Of a DNA stretch of 20,281 nt, positions 40 through 15,644 are shown in pieces. The position numbers were made by a program, and so were the translations under genes. The notes below the pieces were generated by a model, which did no database searches, was not told where the DNA came from, and saw only the letters and a list, made by a program, of their open reading frames with translations. Source of the DNA: Deltaproteobacteria bacterium (GTDB lineage Bacteria > JACQOV01); the NCBI GenBank assembly GCA_016202395.1, contig JACQOV010000026.1, positions 1-20,281 of the forward strand, given 5' to 3'. How positions within the stretch are numbered: position 1 is the first letter of the stretch; each line of letters begins with the position of its first letter.

Positions 40-1917
40 CTATTCAATATTTAACCAACCGGATGCGTCAACGAGTTCATTTTTCACACAAACGACATGA
101 ACTCGAACCTCTTCATGGTTATTGTCATGCGAGGCAAAATCGCCCCCACATTCCCAATTAAAGCCCCCTTGTTTACAATGGATCCGACCAATATACGAAA
201 CGCCATTTTCATTGATGTCCCCACCCGCGAAAGAGAAACCACCCGTAAAACACCAATGGGTAAGCACAGAAACTTTCGTATCATACCAAACCTCCCCCTT
301 AGATCCCCTAAAACCCAACAATTTAATCGGTTTCTCCCCCTGAACGAGCAGATCTCCATCCAATCGAGAATTCCCAGCCACATGGAGTGGGGCTTGAGGG
401 GAGGAGTTCCCAATGCCTACTTTCCCAGCAAAGTAATTATTCCCACTCCCATTTTGGCTAATCACGCCTGAGAAACTGGTATTTACTGCTTGAATGTCGC
501 CGTTGACATCGAGTTTGTATTGGGAATTAGGAGAGGTGCCAATCCCGACGTTGCCGGTGATTATTTGAACTCCTTGATCGCTGATCCGAGCAATGTCAGC
601 CCCTCCCACTATAAACGTATGACCTGTGGACGCTACGACTCCATAGTTCATCCCCCCTCCATGCCCTAGGACATAGGATGAAGCTCCTTCCCCCGTTAAA
701 TTGAGTCTCGCGCCAAACATCTGCCCATCTACATACATATCATTATCCACCTGGATATCATGACTGGTGCGAATATCCCCCTCCACATCCAGCTTGTAGC
801 CGGGAAACGACGTCCCGATGCCAACGTTGCCGCTCGGTTGGATGACCATCTCAGTGCCGCCAACCCCTTGCCACGCGTTGAACTGGATATCGAAGTTGTC
901 GCGCGTGCCAAAGACCATCGCACCATTGTGCGACAAGATCTCACCTCCTGCCATGGTTGTCGCGAGCCCGGTGGTCGGCGCTGTGACACCAATAACGTAT
1001 CCATCACCGTGCACATCCAGCTTGTAGCCGGGCGTCGTCGTTCCGATGCCGACGTTTCCCTGTGCGTCGATCACCAACCGATCCTTGTTCGCGCTCGCGT
1101 CCGTGATCGAAAAGCCCCCGCCCTCGCTACCAACGACCCAATTTCCACCGCCCGCCCCGACGGCGAAGAACCCAATACGAGAAGCGTTGCCGGCCGTCTC
1201 GAAGCGAGCCGGAAGCGTGCCCGCCGGACCGACCACGTGCAGGGGATTCGCCGGGCTCGTCGTCCCGATGCCGACGTTGCCTTGACTTGTCACCGTTAAT
1301 CTCGCCTGTCCGCTCGTATCATCCCATATGGAAAGACTATTTGCATCGCCTACCCCCGCCCCCGTAAAAATCTTCCAATCGTTCTTGCTGGCGTCGGTAT
1401 TCACAAAATTGATGGCACTGGCACTGGTTCCCTTTATTTGTATTTCACCCTGACCTGTCGCATTGACTACCTCCAGTTTCGTCGCCGGATTTGTTGTTCC
1501 GATGCCGACGTTGCCATTGGCCACGATAAAATCCCCTTGGGAGCCCAGGGCGTAGGGGACGGAAACCAGGTGCTGATACTGATTGCTGGTCATTAAAGGT
1601 TCCCCTTCCACTATGACTCGTAAATACAGATCCTGCACCGCAACGTCAGAAGCCTCTATCGGTTGATTGCCTTGAGAAGTGTCCCCTAACTCCACCGAAA
1701 AAATACCTCCAGAAACCTCCACCACATATCTCCCCTCCCACATCGGATCTCCGTAATCCGGGGAACAATTCGGTGTGGAACAGAGCGCAAACTCCATGAT
1801 TGTCGTTCCACTGACCGGCCCACTCCCATCCTCCAACACCCCTTGGTAGGAAAGACGAGCTGAGAAGGCTGAGGTTGTTAAGACCAGCAGACCCAGGGAC
1901 AAGACAAGGTGTTTCAT
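40..1917 (-). CDS. Secreted fibre/adhesin-like protein with six G(N/K)VGIG(T/N) repeats (tail-fibre-like, resembling Bdellovibrio mosaic adhesive fibres)
   Basis: ORF 40..1953; start moved to ATG 1917 (GGAGG at 1923-1927, Sec-type signal MKHLVLSLGLLVLTTSAFSA). N-terminal 'LSYQGVL...GIFSVELG' domain, six VGIG repeats, Cys-containing C-terminal domain. Confidence 0.8.
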   Translation of the reverse strand: MKHLVLSLGLLVLTTSAFSARLSYQGVLEDGSGPVSGTTIMEFALCSTPNCSPDYGDPMWEGRYVVEVSGGIFSVELGDTSQGNQPIEASDVAVQDLYLRVIVEGEPLMTSNQYQHLVSVPYALGSQGDFIVANGNVGIGTTNPATKLEVVNATGQGEIQIKGTSASAINFVNTDASKNDWKIFTGAGVGDANSLSIWDDTSGQARLTVTSQGNVGIGTTSPANPLHVVGPAGTLPARFETAGNASRIGFFAVGAGGGNWVVGSEGGGFSITDASANKDRLVIDAQGNVGIGTTTPGYKLDVHGDGYVIGVTAPTTGLATTMAGGEILSHNGAMVFGTRDNFDIQFNAWQGVGGTEMVIQPSGNVGIGTSFPGYKLDVEGDIRTSHDIQVDNDMYVDGQMFGARLNLTGEGASSYVLGHGGGMNYGVVASTGHTFIVGGADIARISDQGVQIITGNVGIGTSPNSQYKLDVNGDIQAVNTSFSGVISQNGSGNNYFAGKVGIGNSSPQAPLHVAGNSRLDGDLLVQGEKPIKLLGFRGSKGEVWYDTKVSVLTHWCFTGGFSFAGGDINENGVSYIGRIHCKQGGFNWECGGDFASHDNNHEEVRVHVVCVKNELVDASGWLNIE

Positions 1918-1938
1918 AGTGACCTCCAGTTTTTTATG

Positions 1939-2052
1939 GTCATCCCCGTGCAAACGGGGAACCAGACCTGGATCCCCGCTTCCGCGGGGATGACGATGAC
2001 CTGGATTCCCACTTTCGTGGGAATGACGGAATTTCCGTTTTTACGGGATGAC
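1939..2052. repeat. Cluster of four GTCATYCCCG...GGGRATCCAG REP/dRS3-like palindromic units
   Basis: Units at 1939-1965, 1968-1994, 2001-2027 and 2028-2052; 2005-2024 is ATTCCC-N8-GGGAAT. Confidence 0.85.
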
Positions 2053-5432: not shown

Positions 5433-5492
5433 CTAACTCCCTCTAACCCCCTCTAACTCCCCCTTAGAATAAGGGGAGGTTAGGAGGGGTTA
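5433..5492. repeat. CCCCCTT/AAGGGG-type palindromic element overlapping the HlyD stop codon
   Basis: Imperfect hairpin 5444-5492; 5444-5465 is the exact reverse complement of 11418-11439; three ~10-bp CTAACYCCCY units. Confidence 0.7.
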
Positions 5493-6376
5493 CTCACCAA
5501 AATTTCCACATCTACCGGCAACCCCGGCTTGAACTCTCCTCGAGGATTTTCTACAGCGATCTTTACAGCAAATACCAAACGCGCCCGCTCCTTGCGCGTT
5601 TGCACATTGCGTGGCGTAAACTCGGCCTCCTGCGCGATATAAATCACACTCCCATTATAAACGACATCGGGATAGGTCTCGCTCAACACTCTCGCAGGTT
5701 GCCCCAACTTCACTTTGCCAATCTCCGATTCCAGAACATAAACACGAACCCAGAGGTTCTCGAGATCTCCCAAAGTGAGCAAAGGCCTCCCCGGAATAGC
5801 AACCTCGCCAGGCTCCGCAAGCCGAAGCAGCACAACGCCGTCCATCGGTGAGATAATCGTGCTCTTCACAATCTGAGTCTGCACATAACGGAGAGAGGCC
5901 TCCGCTTGCGCAAGCAGCCCATTGGCAAGTTCGACTTGCCCTTCCGCCAGTCTCCAAGCCGTCTCCGTTTGATCGGCCTGCTGCCGTGAGGCCCCACCGG
6001 TTTTCAGCAACGATCGAAAACGCTCGTAATCCCTCTTTTTAAGCTCAAGATCAATCTCCGCCTGATGGAGCTCCGCCTGTCGCGTGACAACCAACGCCTC
6101 CACTCGCCCCTTCTCACTTTGAAGAAGGGCGGTGTCCAACTCGATCAAGGGGGCTCCCGCCTCCACACGATCCCCCTCTTCCGCCAGGAGGGTGAGAATC
6201 GGAGAAGAGATCTCAGCGCTCATATCGACCTGGGTTGCCTCAATCGTCCCAGAAGCCGAAATCGATGCGCCGTCCATCGAATCGCGATGATGAAATTTCC
6301 ACGCCCCTAAAGCGACGAGCGAACCGACGAGAAGAACCAAGGCAACCGATGATTTTTTTCGACTCATTCGAATCAT
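5480..6376 (-). CDS. HlyD-family periplasmic adaptor (YbhG-like)
   Basis: N-terminal TM, SGTIEA, lipoyl-like motifs, EAEFTPRNVQT, KPGLP; GGAGGAGG RBS; ATGA overlap with the TolC stop. Confidence 0.92.
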   Translation of the reverse strand: MIRMSRKKSSVALVLLVGSLVALGAWKFHHRDSMDGASISASGTIEATQVDMSAEISSPILTLLAEEGDRVEAGAPLIELDTALLQSEKGRVEALVVTRQAELHQAEIDLELKKRDYERFRSLLKTGGASRQQADQTETAWRLAEGQVELANGLLAQAEASLRYVQTQIVKSTIISPMDGVVLLRLAEPGEVAIPGRPLLTLGDLENLWVRVYVLESEIGKVKLGQPARVLSETYPDVVYNGSVIYIAQEAEFTPRNVQTRKERARLVFAVKIAVENPRGEFKPGLPVDVEILVSNPS

Positions 6377-7746
6377 GGAATTCCTCCTCCTATGGCCTTA
6401 TAGAAAGCAGCGGTTGCAATTTGATATTGAGAACCGGCGGCTAATGCCGCTACCTCGGCCTCATCCAAGGTAAGTTGCGAATCGAGGACATCGGCATTCG
6501 ACACGATCCCCTCTTTAAAACTGGCCTCCGCAATCTTAAGGGCCTCTTCGGCCACCTGAACCTCTTCTTCACGAGCCTCGACCAATGCTAAACCTTCCTC
6601 AATCCGATCGAGCGATTCTCGAATCTCTAACCAAACTCGATCCTTCAGTTGAAGCTCTCGAAGATCGATCTCGGCCATCTCGGAGCGGAGCGAGTCGACC
6701 TTTCCTGAGACTCCAAATCCATCGAATAGCGGAAACTCGATGGCAGCCCCCACCGACCAATTGTCTTCAAACTTCTGCTCAAAGTCGGGGGCCGGATACT
6801 GATAGCCCCAGTGAGCCCGTCCCAAAAGCGAGGGGCGATTCTTCGCTTTCGTCGCGTGAACCGATTGACGTAGAACCTGGCTCTGGGCTTCCAGGCGATG
6901 AAACTCAGGACGTTCCACCAAAGATTGTTGCAAGACCGCCTCGAAACTAGGAAGCTCATGGCGCTGCTTTAAATCCCCGGAAAGCTCGACAGTCTCTTCC
7001 AAAGGGAGCCCCACCCTCTCTTGAAATCGAAGAAGGGCCCGCTTGTAAGCATGCTCCGCCTCGATCACCTGGGGCCTAAAAGAACGGGTGTGACTCTGCG
7101 TTCGGAGCCATTCAAACCGCGAGATCAGCCCCTGTTGGTAACGACTCTCCGAAATCCGTTCGTGATCTTGAGCCCTCTCGTACCCTTTTTGCTTGACCTG
7201 CCAGAGCTCTTTGGCTTGAAGGGTTTGGTAAAAAATCTCGGAAACTTGGTAGACCACCTCCGACTGAACACGATGAAGCTCGGCCACCTCCGCTTGTCGT
7301 TCAAACTCTCGAGCGCGATAGGTGGAGGCGAGCCTGCCCCAGCTAAAAAGAACCTGCTCGAGATCTAGAGAGGTGTCGATGTTGTCGGCATTGCCCAACT
7401 GGATCGTCTGCGTCCCAGCAGCTCCCACAGGGATCTGAGCCGAGGGAACATTCCCCACCCGCTCGTAGCCCGCATTGAGTGTGAGTTGAGGGAAAAAACT
7501 CGACCGACTCTCTGTCTTAAGCCCTTCCACTTTTCCAACCCGCTCCTCTTGCGCCAGAACCTCACGATTCTGTTTCAACGCCATCTCCACCGCTTGATCC
7601 AACGTCAAAACCTCCTGGGCATAACCAACACCCTGCAGCATTACACCCAGTAGAGGTAGCAAAACCATGATCCCCCTCACCTTCATCCTCTCCCCTTTGG
7701 GGAGAGGAAAGAGGTGAGGGGGTAAAAATTCCGTCCTTCTTTTCAT
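6373..7746 (-). CDS. TolC-family outer-membrane efflux protein
   Basis: LTLDQAVEMAL, FFPQLTL, FPLFDG OEP motifs; GAGG RBS 7 nt upstream of ATG 7746. Confidence 0.9.
   Translation of the reverse strand: MKRRTEFLPPHLFPLPKGERMKVRGIMVLLPLLGVMLQGVGYAQEVLTLDQAVEMALKQNREVLAQEERVGKVEGLKTESRSSFFPQLTLNAGYERVGNVPSAQIPVGAAGTQTIQLGNADNIDTSLDLEQVLFSWGRLASTYRAREFERQAEVAELHRVQSEVVYQVSEIFYQTLQAKELWQVKQKGYERAQDHERISESRYQQGLISRFEWLRTQSHTRSFRPQVIEAEHAYKRALLRFQERVGLPLEETVELSGDLKQRHELPSFEAVLQQSLVERPEFHRLEAQSQVLRQSVHATKAKNRPSLLGRAHWGYQYPAPDFEQKFEDNWSVGAAIEFPLFDGFGVSGKVDSLRSEMAEIDLRELQLKDRVWLEIRESLDRIEEGLALVEAREEEVQVAEEALKIAEASFKEGIVSNADVLDSQLTLDEAEVAALAAGSQYQIATAAFYKAIGGGIP
7672..7722. repeat. 51-bp CCCCTCACC...GGTGAGGGG palindromic element inside the TolC 5' coding region
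   Basis: Near-perfect hairpin; core CCTCTCCCCTTTGGGGAGAGG identical to the element at 14701-14751. Confidence 0.8.
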
Positions 7747-8395: not shown

Positions 8396-8932
8396 TTACC
8401 ACGGTGCTTCTGCTTGCTTCGCCTGAAAATTCTCCCAACGGGCCAAGACAAAGAGATAATCGGAGAGTCGATTGAGATAAACAACGATCGGAGTCATCTC
8501 CTCTCGGTCATCAAGAGAAACCACTCGACGCTCCGCATGGCGACAAACCGTTCTCGCGTAGTGAAGCAACGCCGCCGTTTGCGTTCCCCCCGGCAAAATA
8601 AAATTTTTGAGTTTGGGGAGCCTCTCTTCCCAACGATCGATCGCCTTTTCTAACTCTTCCACCCTTCCCGCTTTAAGAATGGCCTTCTCTTTGGCTTTGG
8701 CTCCGGGTCGAGGATCGGCCAACCGCGCGCCAATCGTAAAAAGATCGCGCTGGATCTGCTCGAGCTCTTTTCGAGTCTCCTCATGGTCGGTAACGGAACA
8801 AACCCACCCCAACAACGCATTCAACTCATCCACATGACCATAGGCTTCCACCCACGGATGGTCTTTTCGAACTCGCGAGCCATCCGCAAGCCCGGTCTCC
8901 CCCCGATCCCCTGTTTTGGTGTAGATCTTCAC
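8396..8932 (-). CDS. pduO: Cob(I)alamin adenosyltransferase, PduO type
   Basis: KIYTKTGDRGET, EAYGHVDELN, FILPGG, ARTVCRHAER, YLNRLSDYLF motifs; GTG start. Confidence 0.93.
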   Translation of the reverse strand: MKIYTKTGDRGETGLADGSRVRKDHPWVEAYGHVDELNALLGWVCSVTDHEETRKELEQIQRDLFTIGARLADPRPGAKAKEKAILKAGRVEELEKAIDRWEERLPKLKNFILPGGTQTAALLHYARTVCRHAERRVVSLDDREEMTPIVVYLNRLSDYLFVLARWENFQAKQAEAPW

Positions 8933-9045
8933 GTCGCACCCCAGTCTATCAAAAAGTCCCCCCGTTTAAAAGAATGCGGAAAAGAATCTCCCTTTATGGT
9001 AGAATTATTGGCTAGTGCAGTTTGCTCGAGATTGGCCGAAGAAGG

Positions 9046-9071
9046 CAATTGTCGCGGCGCCGCAACAATTG
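9046..9071. promoter_or_regulatory. 26-bp near-perfect palindrome, possible protein-binding site
   Basis: CAATTGTCGCGGCGCCGCAACAATTG, one mismatched pair. Confidence 0.45.
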
Positions 9072-9078
9072 GATGGGT

Positions 9079-9162
9079 AATTTGGGGACACGATGCTTAA
9101 TCCAGAAAAGTTTTCATAGATAAGTATCGTGTCCCCCGAACTACCCGAACTACACCGAACTA
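9079..9162. mobile_element. Hairpin element 1 (inverted + direct copy of the array motif) with 3' tandem duplications
   Basis: GGGGACACGATGCTTA-ATCCAGAAAAGTTTTCATAGA-TAAGTATCGTGTCCCCCGAACT; CCGAACTA at 9136, 9145 and 9155. Confidence 0.75.
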
Positions 9163-9163
9163 T

Positions 9164-9433
9164 TTAGGCAGCACGTTTTTTGAAAACGGCCTCCTCTAAT
9201 CGAGCAATTCTAGAGACCAATCCCCTCTTCTGACCCAATAAATAATCCTTGAGTATTTGATTAAGGAGCGCCTGATACTTACTCCCAGAATCAATAGCCA
9301 GACTCCGAAGAATGTCCAACACTTCCTTATCGAGATAGGTAGTGATACGAACCTTTGCAGATTTCAGCTCTTCTAAGCTTATAGAAGGACCTCGTACTTT
9401 TTCCATTTTGCTAGGATCAGGTATTTTCTTCAT
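9164..9433 (-). CDS. brnA: BrnA-family antitoxin (RHH/CopG-like)
   Basis: KVRITTYLD...KYQALLNQILKDY; start ATG 9433 with GGAGG at 9441-9445; overlaps the toxin 3' end. Confidence 0.8.
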   Translation of the reverse strand: MKKIPDPSKMEKVRGPSISLEELKSAKVRITTYLDKEVLDILRSLAIDSGSKYQALLNQILKDYLLGQKRGLVSRIARLEEAVFKKRAA

Positions 9434-9695
9434 AATATTTCCTCCATTTGCGCCATTCCGCAGCGCCAAAAATACGAACCGTCTCTCCCCGTAAAGTATA
9501 CCGTACAGTGATGATCTTACCTTTTACGGTTTTACCAACAGCATAGTGTCGATCCTCTTCCGAGGAATGTTTTGGATCTTCCAAATGAATAACCTTTGGA
9601 TCTGCAAAAACTTCCATGGCTTCTTCAAAATTACAGCTATGCTTCGAGATATTTCTAAGTTCTTTCTCAAAATCCCACTCAAAAGTGTACGTCAC
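9417..9695 (-). CDS. brnT: BrnT-family toxin (DUF497)
   Basis: FEWD..K...N..KH...FEEA.EVF.DP, HSSEEDR...VG, VRIFGA. Confidence 0.9.
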   Translation of the reverse strand: MTYTFEWDFEKELRNISKHSCNFEEAMEVFADPKVIHLEDPKHSSEEDRHYAVGKTVKGKIITVRYTLRGETVRIFGAAEWRKWRKYYEENT

Positions 9696-9701
9696 GCTCT
9701 A

Positions 9702-9730
9702 CTTATATGCTATTATATGTATTATGTCAA
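9702..9730 (-). promoter_or_regulatory. Sigma-70 promoter of brnT-brnA, probably leaderless
   Basis: TTGACA (9730-9725)-N17-TATAAG (9707-9702), then 6 nt to the GTG start; no SD. Confidence 0.7.
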
Positions 9731-9768
9731 GCGGTTGTACTGGACGCCAAAAAGGGTGGGGTCATATA

Positions 9769-9833
9769 AATTCTGGGGACACGATGCTTAATCCAGAAAA
9801 GTTTTCATGGATAAGCATCGTGTCTCCCGAGCT
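9769..9833. mobile_element. Hairpin element 2 (near-identical to element 1)
   Basis: GGGGACACGATGCTTAATCCAGAAAAGTTTTCATGGATAAGCATCGTGTCTCCCGAGCT. Confidence 0.75.
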
Positions 9834-9848
9834 TGAAAGGACTCCGTT

Positions 9849-10319
9849 ATGAAATCTGACCATTACATTTTTGATGTCTCGATTGAAAATTGCGGCGCCT
9901 ATGATGTGAAGGGAAAAGTCCTGCGCAAGATCCAGATTGACGGGAACAAGAGTCTTTATAACTTTGCACAAGTAATCACAGAGACGTTCGGATTTTATTT
10001 TGACCATTGTTTTGGTTTCTACGACAATTTTAAAAGATATCATGATTCCAGGAAGGCCTATGAACTTTTCCAAGATATCGGAGAGGAGCCGCTTTCGCCA
10101 ACAACCCAAGGAGTCAAGAAAACAAAAATATCACAGGCGTTTAAGACCCTCGGCGAGAAAATGCTTTTTCTCTTTGATTACGGCGACGGCTGGCGTTTTG
10201 TTGTGGAATTGAAAGAGATCAAAAACTCCGAAAAACGGAATTTAAAACCGGTGATATTAGAGGCGATCGGCAAAGCGCCGGAACAGTACCCACGGTACAA
10301 AGAGGAATGGGATGTGTAG
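9849..10319 (+). CDS. Plasmid pRiA4b ORF-3 / TnpR-like family protein
   Basis: RKIQIDG..SL......I...FGF..DH...F and FLFDYGDGWRF...L, G.AP.QY motifs; AAGGA RBS. Confidence 0.8.
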   Translation: MKSDHYIFDVSIENCGAYDVKGKVLRKIQIDGNKSLYNFAQVITETFGFYFDHCFGFYDNFKRYHDSRKAYELFQDIGEEPLSPTTQGVKKTKISQAFKTLGEKMLFLFDYGDGWRFVVELKEIKNSEKRNLKPVILEAIGKAPEQYPRYKEEWDV

Positions 10320-10327
10320 AAGAACTG

Positions 10328-10460
10328 GGGGCCAGGTTCAAGTATTAAGTTTTTAATCTATTTCCCGTTCGCCCTGAGCCCTTCGATAAACTCAGGACGG
10401 GCCTAGTCGAAGGGGGTGAACGGGGGTTTTTCAGCAGAATCAATACTTGAACCTGACCCC
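10328..10460. mobile_element. MITE-like element with 19-bp terminal inverted repeats containing a nested palindrome
   Basis: GGGGCCAGGTTCAAGTATT (10328-10346) / AATACTTGAACCTGACCCC (10442-10460), 18/19 match; nested CCCGTTCGCCC...GGGTGAACGGG at 10364-10424. Confidence 0.7.
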
Positions 10461-10510
10461 AAGCGTTTCAGTGAAAAAACTCCCGAATCCCAAAGGGATG
10501 GTTTAGCCAT

Positions 10511-10547
10511 TCAGTATCGTGTCCCCAGAACTTATGCAGAACTTATG
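10511..10547 (+). repeat. Array motif copy 3 with 11-bp tandem duplication
   Basis: TCAGTATCGTGTCCCCAGAACT; CAGAACTTATG twice (10526-10547). Confidence 0.8.
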
Positions 10548-10549
10548 CT

Positions 10550-10720
10550 TACACTAAGATGCTCAAGAGGCAAATAACCATCCGTCTGGAATCAGAGACT
10601 ATTGCTTATTTTAAAAAATTAGCTAAACGCTCCGAAATTCCTTATCAAAGCTTGATCAACATGTACCTTAAGGAATGTGTTCAATCCCACAAGAAACCTG
10701 TTTTTAAATGGGCCGCCTAA
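10550..10720 (+). pseudogene. 5'-truncated BrnA-family antitoxin (not in ORF track; 53 aa from ATG 10559)
   Basis: Translated by hand: YTKMLKRQITIRLESETIAYFKKLAKRSEIPYQSLINMYLKECVQSHKKPVFKWAA*. Lacks the usual N-terminal EYDF...NPY segment, an SD and a toxin partner. Confidence 0.7.
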
Positions 10721-10734
10721 AATATGTTTCCAAT

Positions 10735-10756
10735 TAAGCATCGTGTCCATCGAACT
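10735..10756 (+). repeat. Array motif copy 4
   Basis: TAAGCATCGTGTCCATCGAACT. Confidence 0.8.
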
Positions 10757-10766
10757 TTTTACAACA

Positions 10767-11168
10767 CTAAAGCCCTTCTTCACATGAAATCCAATCTTCA
10801 TAAACCTTTCCGTGTTTAGGGGAAACAAAAGCCATGTTACCTATCATACTCACGTTAGTCTTACGACCAGGTTTAACTATGGCACACTGATGCATGAGCC
10901 CAAAAGTCATATAAAAATCACCGTCTGAACCAGAACTTTTCCAAACTGTTATCCCAGTGTCATGGTTTCCAATTCCATCAATACTAAAAAACAAATCTTT
11001 ACCAACTTTGTAATTACAAGATAAGACTTGTGACTCCGACTCTCCGCTCTTGCAAGATTTCCCTTTTAGAGTCTCCTTATAGGTTATGTTGTCCTTCTCT
11101 GCCATCACATCAAGACTAAAAAGAAGTGTGAAGATAGCAATAAAAAATATCCGCGGCTTGCTTTTCAT
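10767..11168 (-). CDS. Secreted hypothetical protein with four Cys
   Basis: Start ATG 11168 with GGAGG RBS; signal peptide MKSKPRIFFIAIFTLLFSLDVMA; AT-rich. Confidence 0.75.
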   Translation of the reverse strand: MKSKPRIFFIAIFTLLFSLDVMAEKDNITYKETLKGKSCKSGESESQVLSCNYKVGKDLFFSIDGIGNHDTGITVWKSSGSDGDFYMTFGLMHQCAIVKPGRKTNVSMIGNMAFVSPKHGKVYEDWISCEEGL

Positions 11169-11284
11169 AAGTGGCCTCCATGACAAATTTAAAAGATAAA
11201 CCCCCAGCATCGGAAGAATGATAGCAAATTGGAGATAATAAAGACACTCAAGTCCCTATTTCCTCCCCCACTTATTTTCCCAAT

Positions 11285-11306
11285 TAAGTATCGTCCCCCC
11301 CGAACT
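11285..11306 (+). repeat. Array motif copy 5
   Basis: TAAGTATCGTCCCCCCCGAACT. Confidence 0.75.
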
Positions 11307-11325
11307 TGAGGGGAAATCCCCTCTT

Positions 11326-11497
11326 GTCATTGCGAGGAGCCCCGCCTTGGCGGGGCGACGAAACAATCTCCTCCCCCTTGAAACAAGGGGCTACAATCCA
11401 TTTCTCCCCCTTTGATAAAGGGGGAGTTAGAGGGGGTTACTCTTCCATTCATGGTAAGTGGCATTCCGTTCATGGTGAGCTCCGTCGAACCATGAAC
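11326..11497. repeat. Mosaic of at least three small palindromic element families
   Basis: GTCATTGCGAGG...AAACAATCTC (11326-11370); CCCCTT/AAGGGG hairpins (about 11374-11439); GTTCATGGT...ACCATGAAC (11468-11497). Confidence 0.7.
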
Positions 11498-11671
11498 AAA
11501 GGGAACGGCCTCAGACAAGAGTTGTGAAGTTGCTGAAAACTAAAAAACCATTACCTGACACCATTCCTGACCCCCATTTCCGCAAGAAAAACAGTCGCTG
11601 TCCCTATTTTCTAAACCAATGCTGTGGAACAAATCATTAAGTTCGGCGGACACAACAGAGCATGTAACCGC

Positions 11672-11711
11672 TTGCTTTATTATTAACGATATTGTATAAA
11701 ATCGTTAATAA
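11672..11711 (+). promoter_or_regulatory. Fic gene promoter overlapped by an 11-bp inverted-repeat operator
   Basis: TTGCTT-N17-TATAAA; TTATTAACGAT-N10-ATCGTTAATAA (11680-11711); extra half-site TTATTAACG at 11721-11729. Confidence 0.65.
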
Positions 11712-11739
11712 GACAATCCCTTATTAACGGGTTTACGAC

Positions 11740-12876
11740 ATGGCTACAATTCATGGGAAAAAGATCAAATGCGCGGAAGGCTATCAGGCTTATGTTCCTG
11801 ATCCATTGCCTCCCCCGATAGAGTGGAATGAAAGGCTCGCCAGACATCTCTCTGATGCAGATCGCAAGATCGGTCAGTTGGCCACCATCGGTTCGGCCTT
11901 GCCAAACCCTCATTTATTGATCCGTCCTTTTGTCCGTCGCGAGGCCGTGTTGTCCAGCCGTATCGAAGGCACTCAAACCTCACTGGCAGAGTTATTCGCG
12001 GACGAAGCGGGTGTGGAAACGGGACGTGACCGCTCGGATCTCAAGGAAGTCGAGAACTATGTCAAAGCCTTGGAATATGGAATCAAGCGCCTCAAGACAT
12101 TACCGATGTCACTCCGTCTGATGTGTGAAATTCATGAGCATCTGATGAAAGGGGTGCGAGGCAACATAGCGACTCCGGGTGAATTCAGAAGATCTCAAAA
12201 TTGGATCGGGGTCGCTGGCTGCACCTTGCAAAACGCAACTTACATTCCACCACCGCCATATTTGTTGATGGAGTGTTTAGGAACCTTGGAAAAATTCTTT
12301 CATGAATCGACCCTGCCGCCACTTGTCACCATCGGCCTGATCCATCAGCAATTCGAGGCCATCCACCCATTCCTAGACGGGAACGGTCGTGTAGGACGTC
12401 TACTTATTATCCTTTACCTCGTGGAACACGGTATCCTCCCTTCTCCGATTATGTATCTCAGCGCTTTTTTTGAGGCCACCCGAGACGAATACTATGCCCG
12501 ACTTAATGCCGTCAATGAAAACGGAGATTGGAAGGGCTGGGTTGAATACTTCTTGAATGGCGTGACCCGTCAGGCAGAAGACGCCCTGAGTCGCATCCAG
12601 CAGATGCAGGAAACCGTTACAAAATGGAAACAACTCTTCACCCACAAGGCGGCTGACAAGAACAGTCTCTTGTTGATTGATGACTGCATGACAAACCCCT
12701 TCATGACCGTCGGTGGTATGGCTAAAAAACATAAAATCTCTTTCCCAACGGTGCAACGTGCCGTGGACAAGCTCGAAAAGGCAGGCGTTTTGAAACAGAC
12801 CAGCGATGCAAAACGAAACCGAATCTATTGTGCCCGTCGCATTTTAGATATTTTGGATCAACCTGCTAAGATTTAG
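11740..12876 (+). CDS. Fic-family protein (N-terminal inhibitory motif, C-terminal wHTH)
   Basis: Canonical HPFLDGNGRVGR; SSRIEG matches the (S/T)xxxE(G/N) inhibitory helix. Confidence 0.92.
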   Translation: MATIHGKKIKCAEGYQAYVPDPLPPPIEWNERLARHLSDADRKIGQLATIGSALPNPHLLIRPFVRREAVLSSRIEGTQTSLAELFADEAGVETGRDRSDLKEVENYVKALEYGIKRLKTLPMSLRLMCEIHEHLMKGVRGNIATPGEFRRSQNWIGVAGCTLQNATYIPPPPYLLMECLGTLEKFFHESTLPPLVTIGLIHQQFEAIHPFLDGNGRVGRLLIILYLVEHGILPSPIMYLSAFFEATRDEYYARLNAVNENGDWKGWVEYFLNGVTRQAEDALSRIQQMQETVTKWKQLFTHKAADKNSLLLIDDCMTNPFMTVGGMAKKHKISFPTVQRAVDKLEKAGVLKQTSDAKRNRIYCARRILDILDQPAKI

Positions 12877-12889
12877 CCGAGAAGAAAAT

Positions 12890-13261
12890 TTCTCGGCTCA
12901 AATCCGATCGCTGCGCACATTTCTCGGGATGACACAAGCACAACTCGCAAAACGAGCATCACAAAATCCCCGGCTCATTCGGCGGCTGGAATCTGGGGAG
13001 GTAGACCCTCGCCTATCGACTCTTATGAAAACAGCGGAAGGATTGGAGTGCAAACTTGTTGTTCGATTTGTGCCAAAACAACCGGTTGTAAAATTATTAC
13101 GGCAACGCGCAGAAAAAAAGGCCGAACAGATCGTTGAGTTGTCGAAAGGGACCGCTGCAATGGAAGAACAAGAACCTAAAGACGTCATTGTTCAATTTCA
13201 AAAAACCGCGATTGCTGAAGAATTGATCGACAAAAAACGGTCTCTGCTGTGGGAAGACTGA
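12890..13261 (+). pseudogene. Mobile mystery protein A-like XRE-HTH protein, apparently 5'-truncated
   Basis: Frame reads FSAQIRSLRTFLGMTQAQLAKR...LECKLVVRFVP...MEEQ...LWED. The first HTH helix lies upstream of ATG 12929 and there is no ATG/GTG/TTG back to the in-frame stop at 12845. Confidence 0.7.
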
Positions 13262-13784
13262 CTTTGAAAAGTAAAGCTACCAACGACGGGAAAACACCTT
13301 TAGCCGATTCTTCGGGATTACTTGTCGATGTTTATGCTCGAGACCAACTCAACGCATTTGAGTTTGAAAATGTCAATAAAGCGATCATGAAATATCTGAC
13401 CCGTCGCCCCACAGACAAAAGGGCATCCTTTACCTACTCGTGGTTTTTACAAGTACATCAAGAGATGTTTGGAGAGGTAACGATTACCACTTTTGGACGA
13501 AATCTGAAATGAACCATGAAGAACTCTCGGCTAGATTGCATCATCGATTGGTGTGGATTCACCCTTTTGAAAATGGAAATGGTCGATGGGCTCGACTCAT
13601 CATGAATATTCATCTTAAAAAGTATAACCTGCCATGAGTGGAGTGGCCGGAAAAGAGCCTTCTGGATCTTTCCTGCATTCGAGAGAAATATCTAAAAGCG
13701 CTGCGCGATGCAGACCACCAAAACCTTCAACCTTTGATTGCCCTGCACCAATCGCTACAAAAGCAGAGCAAACAGCCCTCTTAA
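13249..13784 (+). pseudogene. Mobile mystery protein B-like Fic protein, disrupted
   Basis: GKTPL...LNAFEFEN...HQEMFGEV, frame change with apparent internal deletion near 13480, HHRLVWIHPFENGNGRWAR, in-frame TGA at 13635-13637, then VEWP...REKYLKALRDAD to TAA 13784. Confidence 0.8.
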
Positions 13785-13820
13785 AAACTTCCCGCAACCC
13801 CGAAGGGATAGCCTGGCCAT

Positions 13821-13842
13821 GAAGCATCGTGTCCCCCGAACT
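13821..13842 (+). repeat. Array motif copy 6
   Basis: GAAGCATCGTGTCCCCCGAACT; the upstream ~38 bp also aligns with the sequence upstream of copy 3. Confidence 0.8.
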
Positions 13843-13951
13843 CCCATTTTCATGTACCCGCTATCGAGCTCAAGTACTACTCAACACGCGACTTGACCCC
13901 ATGACCTGCTATGAAATCTTTTCTAAATTGAGTATTCTGTTCCCGGCATTT

Positions 13952-14257
13952 ATGAAAAAGGGATTCAGAGAAATATTCCTGGCTAAACCGCCGCCCGCCA
14001 AGAAGGGTGAGATTAATTATTCCCTTATCGATCGGTTCACGTTGGTCCATTTTATGATCGGTTTTGGTTATGACTTGCTGGGACTTAGTTTGGGGCTGGT
14101 TGTTTTGCTTGCGCTTGTCTGGGAACTTCTCGAAAATCCCTTGAAAGCCCATCTTCCTTTTATGTTTCCTCATGGCACAGCAGATACTTTACAAAACTCG
14201 GTGGGGGACACCCTTGCCGTTATCTTAGGTTGGATAATTAGCCGTTACGTTATTTAA
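13952..14257 (+). CDS. Small membrane protein (DUF2585-like motif pattern)
   Basis: D.FT.VH...G, WELLEN, DT.QNSVGD with hydrophobic segments; start uncertain (ATG 13952 or 13901). Confidence 0.6.
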   Translation: MKKGFREIFLAKPPPAKKGEINYSLIDRFTLVHFMIGFGYDLLGLSLGLVVLLALVWELLENPLKAHLPFMFPHGTADTLQNSVGDTLAVILGWIISRYVI

Positions 14258-14315
14258 CAACAACCCTTCCGCAGGTGATCGGCCTCTAAAACTCTGGGAT
14301 AAATTCATTCAAAAC

Positions 14316-14410
14316 GTCATCCCCGCGAAAGCGGGGATCCGGCAACATTCATAAGACTGGGTCCCCGCTTTCGCGGGGATGACGTGGATTCCTGTTTTTA
14401 CGGGAATGAC
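14316..14410. repeat. Second GTCATCCCCG REP/dRS3-like palindrome cluster
   Basis: Units at 14316-14342, 14357-14383 and 14385-14410; same family as 1939-2052. Confidence 0.85.
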
Positions 14411-14516
14411 GGATGGAGCGGCAGAATGACGTGACCCTGACTGGACGGATACATCCATTTGACATAAAGAAAGGGGCGTGATACCAACGAGCCTTCCACA
14501 AGGGAGGGCCAATCCA

Positions 14517-15644
14517 ATGGAGAGGAATCGGATTTTGTCTTGGGTTTTGGGGTTCGGGGTTTGGATCTTCGCTCCTCATTCCCTGATCGCTGAAACTCAG
14601 TTTTTCCATAGCGATCATCTGGGATCTTCAACACTCGTAACCCATGCCGATGGCCAGGTCGTTCAAAGCGGGACATACTCCCCTTTTGGAGAGCCCTTAA
14701 CCCCTCACCCTTCTCCCTCTCCCCTTTGGGGAGAGGGTTGGGGTGAGGGGGCTACCGCTTACCTTTACACCGGCCAAGAGCTCGACGCGGAATCTGCCCT
14801 CTACGATTATGGCGCCCGATCTTATGATGCCGCTTTATCTCGTTTTGTCAGCGCCGATCCGGTTCTGGGAAATCCCCCTTATAGTTACGTCCAAAACAAT
14901 CCGATCCAGAGAATCGATCCTAATGGGAAAGACGATGAAGATTTTCAAGAGTTGCTGCGCCGATTCGAGAGTTCTTCCAGGCGACTTGGAGAAAAAATAG
15001 CCAGACTGGCATCAGAGGCCTCTAGACTGGCTGCAGAGCGGTATGCAGCCGAGTGGGATTCCCTACCCCAAGAACAAAGGGGAAATATATTGGAGAATCT
15101 AACGCATCGAGATCCTGCAACAAACGGTTATCGGATCCAAATCACCGTGGAAAGCATGATGGCCAAAAGTCTTGCTAAAGAACTCAAGGCAAAAATAGAC
15201 GAAGATTCAGCGCTGATCGAGAGACTAGATGCCCGTCAACTCATGGCTTATACAGAGCTCACCAAAGGCCTCCCCGAAAGTAGGACCCTTCATTTTAGTA
15301 GTGTGGATGGCGAAAAATTTTCGGGGCCTTTGGCATTTCCCGTAAATCTCGATCCCTCGCTGGGTCAAAATACGGGCTATGGGACACCGGAGGATAGCGC
15401 CTTGAAAAAGATAGGGTTACCAGGCCAGAAACTCGATTATCGACTCAAGCCTAATCCTTGGGTTTCTCCCAATATGGAAGAGCTTCGACAATCGCTGGGC
15501 ACGAATCCAGGTTATGGATGGAATCCCGATTGGGGAAGTTTGGCAGGCCCCCTGTTCGTAGTAGGGGTCACAGGAGCCGTAGTCGGCTGCGCCCTCTTCT
15601 CTGAGGTCTGTGGCGCAGCAGCAACCTTGGCCACCGTTCCGTAG
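14517..15644 (+). CDS. Short RHS repeat-associated core protein with signal-peptide-like N-terminus and unknown C-terminal extension
   Basis: HSDHLGS, YSPFGE, YTGQELD, YDYGARSYD...RFVSADP, YSYVQNNPIQRIDPNG; ATG 14517 with GGGAGGG RBS. Confidence 0.85.
   Translation: MERNRILSWVLGFGVWIFAPHSLIAETQFFHSDHLGSSTLVTHADGQVVQSGTYSPFGEPLTPHPSPSPLWGEGWGEGATAYLYTGQELDAESALYDYGARSYDAALSRFVSADPVLGNPPYSYVQNNPIQRIDPNGKDDEDFQELLRRFESSSRRLGEKIARLASEASRLAAERYAAEWDSLPQEQRGNILENLTHRDPATNGYRIQITVESMMAKSLAKELKAKIDEDSALIERLDARQLMAYTELTKGLPESRTLHFSSVDGEKFSGPLAFPVNLDPSLGQNTGYGTPEDSALKKIGLPGQKLDYRLKPNPWVSPNMEELRQSLGTNPGYGWNPDWGSLAGPLFVVGVTGAVVGCALFSEVCGAAATLATVP
14701..14751. repeat. CCCCTCACC...GGTGAGGGG palindromic element inserted in frame in the RHS core
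   Basis: Hairpin translated as PHPSPSPLWGEGWGEG between YSPFGE and YLYTGQE. Confidence 0.8.

What the first reader, a model, noticed from the sequence alone, without database searches (positions are those of the whole stretch)
9079..9833. Two near-identical bulged hairpins bracket the brnT-brnA module
9084-9142 and 9775-9833 differ at only four positions. In element 2 the left arm ACACGATGCTT-A-ATCCA-GAAA pairs with the right arm (read as reverse complement ACACGATGCTT-ATCCA-T-GAAA), leaving one unpaired base on each arm. Extrahelical bases in ssDNA hairpins are how integron integrases and IS200/IS605 TnpA discriminate strands. As direct repeats, the two elements define an excisable ~690-bp TA unit with its own promoter.
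Basis: partly seen in the sequence, partly recalled or inferred. Interest (0 to 1): 0.75.

Follow-up and report, generated by a model that had tools for sequence, protein, structure and literature searches.

The report
Transposon-end hairpins beside toxin-antitoxin genes
The two hairpins are gene-less miniature copies of the ends of a known but little-studied single-strand-DNA transposon family; they are scattered through this genome and pile up around accessory genes, and nothing shows that they cut out the toxin-antitoxin pair.

Summary
In detail: two 59-nt copies, 691 bp apart, four transitions, strong hairpins, flanking brnT-brnA. The interpretation mostly does not. Each hairpin is a head-to-head dimer of the end repeat (GGGGACACGAT, motif GGGGWSAS) of a TIRtron, the Y1/HUH 'TIRYT' element of Di Nocera 2013. 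The same arm encloses a 201-222 aa Y1 gene in four other genomes. This genome holds 24 arms: 8 dimers, two in frame inside carA and fmt, plus single arms. The cognate enzyme is not in this 89%-complete assembly. The bulge occurs in 3 of 20 dimer rows. There is no attC core and no integron integrase; 0 of 12 BrnT-homologue loci carry the arm; no empty site or circle appeared in contigs of four runs (weak test). What remains of interest: the pair heads a 4.8-kb island with eight co-oriented single ends, stuttered outer edges and a truncated antitoxin fused to one end, and TA toxins lie near TIR ends more often than other short genes (11/37 versus 21/329). One-ended capture of cargo is therefore possible but unproven. 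The scan has noted this repeat family before on other DNA.

The parts
9084..9136 (.). Element 1: head-to-head dimer of the GGGGACACGAT-type TIR arm (mini-TIRtron, 53-nt core); stem can extend to 9075-9146
9136..9162 (+). Outer-edge stutter: three copies of CCGAACTA straddling the end of element 1's right arm, ending 1 nt before the brnA stop
   Evidence: read from sequence; same feature in 20 of 85 arms from other genomes
9164..9433 (-). brnA antitoxin (likely start ATG 9433, 89 aa; overlaps the brnT stop)
   Evidence: PF14384 26.6 bits vs cut-off 26.1; 65% identical to the L153 antitoxin
9417..9695 (-). brnT toxin (92 aa)
   Evidence: PF04365 E 1.6e-19
9702..9750 (-). Promoter/operator region of brnTA: TTGACA-17-TATAAG read by eye; a second consensus site 9750-9721 called by the scan (2 found, 2.1 expected by chance); a 17-nt AT-rich motif is shared with the closest homologue
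   Evidence: function untested
9775..9833 (.). Element 2: sister dimer (core 9775-9827); its right arm has decayed from GTGTCCCC to GTGTCTCC
9013..9071 (.). Unrelated small repeat with a 26-nt palindrome (9046-9071), 12 nt left of element 1; 97% copy on C82, core also on C36
9849..10319 (+). pRiA4b ORF-3-like gene, starting 16 nt outside element 2
   Evidence: PF07929
10325..10463 (.). Dimer of a second TIR family (CTGACCCC type, related to the ends of the C57 Y1 gene) enclosing another palindrome
   Evidence: (I21)
10486..10548 (+). Single arm (end 10526) with about 45 nt of inner DNA shared with C8 and 13796, followed by an 11-nt tandem stutter (10527-10548)
   Evidence: (D8)
10550..10720 (+). 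5'-truncated BrnA-family antitoxin gene fused to the stutter; about 16 N-terminal codons and the toxin partner are missing
   Evidence: Pfam BrnA/CopG; homologues L229/L231 at 52%/47% extend further 5'
10723..10757 (+). Single decayed arm, directly after the antitoxin stop
10767..11210 (-). Gene of unknown function between two arms
   Evidence: no Pfam hit
11273..11307 (+). Single arm
11553..11605 (+). Three end-like motifs of other TIR types (CTGACACC, CTGACCCC, CTGTCCCT), same direction; short, so less certain
11740..13637 (+). Fic gene (11740-12876), HTH gene (12929-13261) and a broken Fic-family gene (pieces 13249-13637)
13796..13843 (+). Single arm with inner DNA related to 10486-10532
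   Evidence: (D8)
13880..13900 (+). Single end of a TTGACCCC-type TIR family

Best explanation
The two hairpins are recent sister copies of a non-autonomous miniature TIRtron: two end repeats of a TIRYT (Y1 HUH) element set head to head with the gene lost. SHOWN: the arm is the terminal inverted repeat of a coherent group of 201-222 aa Y1 proteins in other genomes; the dimer occurs at unlinked sites of this genome, even inside essential genes; copies share DNA on the inner side only and stop 5-10 nt outside the GGGG. INFERRED: a TIRYT acting in trans nicks one strand just outside the end (near the conserved NGAAYT hexamer), holds the 5' end as a phosphotyrosine and rejoins it elsewhere. Events using both ends move the whole dimer, which gave elements 1 and 2 by a local hop. 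Events using one end copy the arm plus a variable length of inner DNA, which gives the outer-edge stutters, the single arms and the truncated neighbours. brnTA is a passenger of a TIR-rich accessory island and happens to lie between two of its ends. The bulges are lineage features of one subfamily, not recognition signals.
For: Inward-facing pairs of the same arm enclose a Y1 gene in L036, L059, L076, L086; these proteins are 44-56% identical to each other and 28-33% to this genome's two Y1 genes. This genome's own Y1 genes (NF047646 above cut-off plus a DnaA-C-like tail) are bounded by GGGGTCAG TIRs and have their own empty dimers on 7 contigs. In five other genomes 10 of 28 Y1 loci have inward TIR pairs: TGTCCCC ends go with short proteins, TTGACCCC ends with about 330-aa proteins. 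The motif fits GGGGWSAS and 'dimers or clusters' of PMC3733652. A third, 84%-identical copy of the 53-nt dimer sits between carbonic anhydrase and citrate transporter genes on C4; dimers lie in frame in carA and fmt. Two Omnitrophota genomes hold 70 and 54 arms and no BrnT match. Inner-only sharing: 0 of 80 own-genome arms share 17 nt or more outside, while inner sharing runs 15-117 nt. Stutter at 20 of 85 outer edges versus 2-4 expected. L097 and L032 show a truncated copy of arm plus inner DNA in tandem with the full copy.
Against: The cognate short Y1 gene is not in this assembly (89% complete), so present activity is unknown. No close relative exists in the genome collection, so no before/after allele could be compared. 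TA toxins are over-represented near TIR ends in this genome (11 of 37 versus 21 of 329 short genes), and all eight single ends in the island point one way, which 'passenger by chance' does not explain. In carA and fmt the dimer replaces part of a variable loop instead of adding its full length, so clean two-ended insertion is not shown. The nicking chemistry is inferred from the HUH family; I saw no biochemistry on TIRYTs in the papers found.
Confidence: 0.7

Rival explanations
1. TIRYT-driven cassette array. A single end is the recombination site; end-plus-cargo units (promoter-brnT-brnA headed by element 2) are captured or excised by the HUH enzyme and added at the outer edge of a resident end, building a polarised array like an integron without an integrase. 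The hairpins are still TIR dimers, but brnTA travelled with one.
For: Eight single ends of at least three TIR types in 10526-13900 all point one way; 18 of 22 neighbouring single-end pairs in this genome are co-oriented. TA toxins near ends: odds ratio 6.2, Fisher p 7e-5, though clustered loci are not independent. C30, C65 and C5 arrays alternate ends with TA pairs and mini-RHS genes. A truncated antitoxin is fused to a stutter. L090 has Y1, end, brnTA, end, truncated Y1 5' fragment, end. L097 duplicates an end together with most of a gene.
Against: For this arm family alone the TA enrichment is not significant (2 of 37 versus 6 of 329, p 0.19). In other genomes only 3 of 73 inner and 1 of 70 outer neighbours hit TA-type Pfam families (crude ORF calls, and the L090 antitoxin was missed). 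Co-orientation is absent in G043 (5 of 10) and G045 (3 of 6). 0 of 12 BrnT-homologue loci and 0 of 7 further BrnT loci (the eighth was chosen for having arms) carry this arm. No skip or circle joint. Both TA genes and repeats are expected to gather in accessory islands anyway.
Confidence: 0.2
2. One reading: bulged single-strand hairpins read like attC or IS200/IS605 ends, defining a dedicated 691-bp excisable TA unit.
For: Direct repeats 691 bp apart with offset bulges; own promoter-like site inside. The C4 copy keeps the left bulge with a different base.
Against: Bulge in 3 of 20 dimer rows; no R-box core; no IntI and no IS200-type short TnpA in the assembly; the dimer occurs elsewhere without TA; homologous brnTA occurs without hairpins.
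Confidence: 0.05
3. The two copies were made or kept alike by host recombination (duplication on insertion of brnTA by homologous recombination between a dimer-bearing donor and a resident dimer, or gene conversion), or are kept as transcription insulators, with no present role for a TIRYT.
For: No cognate enzyme in the assembly; element 2's end motif has decayed; element 1 lies between the brnA stop and the next operon on the same strand.
Against: No T-tract follows either hairpin and the terminator scan does not call them; this rival does not explain the origin of the arms, the stutters or the intragenic copies.
Confidence: 0.05

Closest known systems
TIRtrons / TIRYT and their TIR repeat families (Di Nocera et al. 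2013, PMC3733652; passages read)
   Same: GGGGWSAS end motif; TIRs flank a tyrosine (Y1 HUH) transposase gene; free TIRs occur as singles, dimers and clusters.
   Different: Whether this exact arm is among those in the paper's Figure 9 could not be seen. The passages read do not mention TA cargo ('toxin' occurs 0 times), outer-edge stutters or polarised arrays of TIR ends.
TnpA-Y1 subclass 2.1 (Quentin et al. 2018, PMC6006769; abstract and passages read) = RAYT group 1
   Same: Y1 proteins with a C-terminal extension (Bac_DnaA_C or HTH-like), flanked by inverted repeats with consensus GGGG[AT][CG]A[CG] and not by REPs.
   Different: The proteins tied to this arm are short (201-222 aa) and their subgroup was not assigned here; the two long DnaA-C-tailed genes of this genome go with other arms.
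REP/REPIN-RAYT systems (TnpA-REP)
   Same: Non-autonomous hairpin doublets spread in trans by a Y1 HUH enzyme; intragenic in-frame copies and clusters with variable flanking DNA are described for REPs.
   Different: The single arm is not itself a palindrome and has no conserved GTAG/CGTC foot: a GTAG lies by element 1 only, none by element 2, and the family's outer consensus is NGAATT.
Integron attC sites / CALIN arrays (features recalled)
   Same: Co-oriented repeats between small accessory genes, many of them TA.
   Different: No RYYYAAC...GTTRRRY core, no unpaired central spacer in the stem foot, no conserved extrahelical base, no IntI.
IS200/IS605 ends (as described in PMC6006769)
   Same: Same enzyme superfamily.
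   Different: IS200/IS605 ends are two different 20-25 nt subterminal hairpins with guide tetranucleotides; here the ends are inverted repeats of one sequence.

Membership tests
TIRtron TIR repeat (mini-TIRtron) | End motif GGGGWSAS | tested here: met
   Three of the four arms begin GGGGACAC; element 2's right arm has one change
TIRtron TIR repeat (mini-TIRtron) | The same repeat flanks a Y1 HUH gene as inward-facing TIRs | tested here: met
   4 distinct genes among 80 loci: L036, L059, L076, L086
TIRtron TIR repeat (mini-TIRtron) | Dispersed family of singles, dimers and groups | tested here: met
   24 arms, 8 dimers in G000; 70 and 54 arms in G043 and G045, control 0
TIRtron TIR repeat (mini-TIRtron) | Cognate TIRYT gene in the same genome | tested here: not met
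   Only two Y1 genes, both with other TIRs and 28-33% identical to the cognate group; assembly 89% complete. PMC3733652 says TIRtrons and TIR families coexist in few genomes, so this is not defining.
TIRtron TIR repeat (mini-TIRtron) | Cleavage or mobilisation by the enzyme | not testable with these tools
   needs biochemistry
Integron attC | R''/R' core RYYYAAC ... GTTRRRY (recalled consensus) | tested here: not met
   0 candidates with 5 or more of 7 paired positions in 8900-14500
Integron attC | Conserved extrahelical bases on the bottom strand | tested here: not met
   3 of 20 dimer rows
Integron attC | IntI in the genome (not required for a CALIN) | tested here: not met
   2 PF00589 matches, XerD- and XerC-like by sequence and context; names assigned from my knowledge
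IS200/IS605 ends | Distinct left and right subterminal hairpins with an IS200-type TnpA | tested here: not met
   Arms are inverted copies of one sequence; both Y1 genes are NF047646-type with long tails
REP/REPIN (GTAG or CGTC) | Palindromic monomer with conserved GTAG/CGTC foot | tested here: not met
Excisable TA cassette | Empty site or circular form | tested here: inconclusive
   No joint in contigs of 4 runs from one study, which may be the source of the assembly; contigs break inside the repeats
Excisable TA cassette | Homologous modules carry the same ends | tested here: not met
   0 of 12 loci, two of them weak matches

The most novel reading that the evidence does not exclude
TIRYT ends act as portable one-sided capture sites: the HUH enzyme nicks just outside an end, replication extends into the end and adjacent DNA, and rejoining adds end-plus-cargo units in one direction. 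This would build integrase-free cassette arrays of TA modules and polymorphic mini-RHS genes (at least 33 paralogues here), with element 2 plus brnTA as one such unit.
Probability: 0.2. Interest if true: 0.75.

Novelty: new member of a known kind. Interest (0 to 1): 0.3.

Why it matters
As it stands this is an ordinary instance of a known repeat class, and it corrects an attC-like reading. The class is barely studied: 'TIRYT' occurs in 2 distinct works and 'TIRtron' in 1 in the library searched. The sequence footprints here (fixed outer edge, variable inner length, truncated copy next to the full copy, stutters) give a concrete, testable model of how these Y1 enzymes act. If they also carry cargo, they would be a gene-capture route parallel to integrons for TA and polymorphic-toxin genes in uncultured bacteria.

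Tried and rejected
Exact 26-nt element pattern in genome contigs: 0 hits. Dimer pattern in viral contigs: 0. Module against plasmids: no match. DNA search of 40 'relatives': only 2 short cob-gene matches, all relatives being at domain level; the order holds only G000, so no orthologous empty site was testable. Rfam: only chance miRNA matches on the CGTC REP, far below gathering. Terminator role: not called. Replication-strand bias as the cause of co-orientation: 44 of 59 arms put CCCC on the C-rich strand, but per contig 16 versus 11 (p 0.44) and 28 of 58 in other genomes; inconclusive, and skew here also follows gene direction. Genome-wide 8-mer counts show no excess of GTGTCCCC under a Markov model (56 versus 53.6), so only the longer arm is informative. 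Four bare 8-mer matches in the window (8902, 8963, 9490 on +; 14204 on -) lacked arm context and were set aside. Five toxin matches below Pfam cut-off were left out of the 38 loci, and DUF2283 was not counted. Literature searches found no paper on TIRYT cassette arrays; most subscription papers are not in the library, and the figures and supplements of PMC3733652 and PMC6006769 were not seen and may list this arm.

Full report
Observation. The window is the whole contig C106 of a 1.9-Mb, 108-contig, 89%-complete genome. The two elements are as described: 59 nt each, 691 bp apart, four transitions, hairpins with z of -6.4 to -7.8 on both strands. Between them lie brnT and brnA, with a promoter-like region at 9702-9750 (the scan's count equals chance). 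The offset bulges of element 2 are real.

The elements belong to a larger family. The repeat finder already showed four more right-arm copies in the window. A 15-nt arm pattern with up to two mismatches gave 28 hits in the genome, against 3 in the reversed genome. I kept 24 as true arms and dropped 4 without context: 8 head-to-head dimers (C3, C4, C19, C27, C32, C48 and the two here) and 8 single arms. The C4 dimer is a third, 84%-identical copy of the same 53-nt subfamily and lies between carbonic anhydrase and citrate transporter genes. The C32 and C48 dimers sit in frame inside carA and fmt; against 19 and 23 homologues they occupy variable loops and add only part of their 15 codons. Those on C19 and C27 overlap the called mraW and comEC frames. 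The dimer therefore exists apart from the TA pair.

What the arm is. The genome has two Y1 HUH genes, NF047646-type with a DnaA-C-like tail, each enclosed by inward-facing GGGGTCAG repeats; the C57 type has empty dimers on seven contigs. PMC3733652 (passages) named such elements TIRtrons and the enzymes TIRYTs, with end motif GGGGWSAS and free TIRs as singles, dimers or clusters. PMC6006769 (abstract and passages) places most in TnpA-Y1 subclass 2.1. An exact 18-nt arm gave at least 127 stretches in GTDB genomes, 80 fetched. Nine of the 80 loci hit a Y1 gene, which is six distinct genes; four are enclosed by an inward pair of this very arm. Those proteins and the L090 one are 201-222 aa and 44-56% identical to each other, but 28-33% to this genome's two Y1s, and no remnant of the short type was found in the assembly. 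In five further genomes 10 of 28 Y1 loci had inward TIR pairs, TGTCCCC types with short proteins and TTGACCCC types with long ones. So the hairpins are miniature TIRtrons whose enzyme is lost or unassembled.

The bulge and excision ideas. Of 20 dimer rows (C3 appears twice) the left bulge at stem position 16 occurs in three: elements 1, 2 and C4. It arises because one arm is of the TTAAT type and the other of the TTAT type. No attC core was found (consensus recalled), and the two tyrosine recombinases look like XerD and XerC (my assignment). None of 12 BrnT-homologue loci carries the arm; the closest shares the operator-like motif but not the hairpins. Two genomes with 70 and 54 arms have no BrnT match. 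Contigs of four groundwater runs of one study show no skip or circle joint. They may be the source of the assembly, break inside the repeats and drop rare forms, so this test is weak. No close relative was available.

Footprints of mechanism. Outside the GGGG the family keeps NGAATT for six positions and then diverges (89 arms). Paralogous arms share DNA inward for variable lengths but not outward: 0 of 80 own-genome arms reach 17 nt outside. In other genomes 14 of 90 do, several being orthologous or duplicated loci or stutters. Short repeats straddling the outer edge occur at 20 of 85 arms, versus 7 at the inner edge, 2.3 at random places and 4.0 with swapped flanks; the window shows two (9136-9162, 10527-10548). 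In L097 an arm plus the 5' part of a gene precedes the full copy, and L032 is alike. This order fits a nick outside the end, extension from the 3'-OH through the arm, and rejoining to the enzyme-held 5' end at a variable point. That is inference from HUH chemistry and is not shown.

The island. From 9084 to 13900 there are three dimers and eight single ends of at least three TIR types, all single ends pointing one way. They separate brnTA, a pRiA4b-like gene, a 5'-truncated orphan antitoxin fused to a stutter, an unknown gene and Fic/HTH genes. Similar polarised arrays on C30, C65, C5, C95 and C104 alternate ends with TA pairs and with members of a family of at least 33 short RHS-core genes. 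Genome-wide, 12 of 38 TA toxin loci lie within 500 bp of an end, against 1.7 expected at random and 4.0 on the same contigs; without this window it is 11 of 37 versus 21 of 329 other short genes. Against this: the excess is not significant for this arm family alone (2 of 37 versus 6 of 329), neighbours in other genomes are mostly ordinary or unassigned genes (3 of 73 inner and 1 of 70 outer with TA-type hits), co-orientation is absent in two arm-rich genomes (5 of 10, 3 of 6), and a replication-strand explanation could not be settled. L090 is one independent case of brnTA between co-oriented ends next to a Y1 gene. The preprint 10.1101/2020.03.09.984088 (whole text read) reports a comparable link of subclass 2.1 genes with prochlorosin genes, and its authors later found no strong evidence of cause. 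PMC5581495 (passages) notes that group 1 RAYTs are the most IS-like true RAYTs.

Verdict. A real feature of a known kind: TIR dimers of a TIRtron family (about 0.95 counting both leading readings). The bulges are not signals and a dedicated excisable TA unit is unlikely (0.05). Carriage of cargo by single ends remains open (0.2). Earlier notes of this scan reached the same family on other genomes; they are unchecked AI notes and not counted as evidence. One prompted the attC scan. Interest 0.3.

Noticed in passing
G000 C28, C30, C5, C95, C104, C65 (L165-L171) and window 14478-15644: At least 33 paralogous short RHS-core genes (329-426 aa; apparent signal peptide, shared first 130-160 aa, variable C-terminus), many separated by co-oriented TIR ends; a possible polymorphic-toxin array tied to TIRYT ends.
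   Followed up: partly
G000 C32:7042-7087 (carA) and C48:4443-4487 (fmt); also C19 mraW 3' end and C27 comEC 5' part: TIR dimers in frame inside housekeeping genes, encoding 15-residue inserts that replace part of variable loops.
   Followed up: partly
window 9013-9071; C82:4706-4764; C36:13771-13796: A separate small repeat family with a 26-nt palindrome; the C82 copy lies next to a DUF1016-N/SNase gene, and a paralogue of that gene precedes the BrnT next to the C8 arm.
   Followed up: partly
window 10367-10430: A further palindromic repeat nested inside the second-family dimer, with copies on C103 and C21.
   Followed up: no
window 1936-2030 and 14313-14413; C30, C5, C104: CGTC-type REP dimers; on C30, C5 and C104 such a REP lies directly inside a TIR end and is repeated with it.
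   Followed up: no
window 5434-5495, 7665-7726, 11371-11442, 14694-14751: CCCC/GGGG-rich palindromic repeats that are very abundant in the groundwater runs; one lies in frame within the RHS gene.
   Followed up: no
G000 whole genome: TA-rich for 1.9 Mb: 21 PIN, 6 ParE, 5 BrnT, 4 PemK and 2 HicA matches above cut-off.
   Followed up: partly
L090/L091 (one Desulfobacteraceae contig): Two different Y1 genes, brnTA, a nucleotidyltransferase-type TA pair and several co-oriented ends of two TIR types within 4.5 kb.
   Followed up: partly
window 13249-13795: Broken Fic-family gene downstream of an HTH gene, ending at a TIR arm.
   Followed up: no
window 40-1953: 637-aa protein with repeated GNVGIGT motifs and a weak tail-fibre match (below cut-off).
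   Followed up: no
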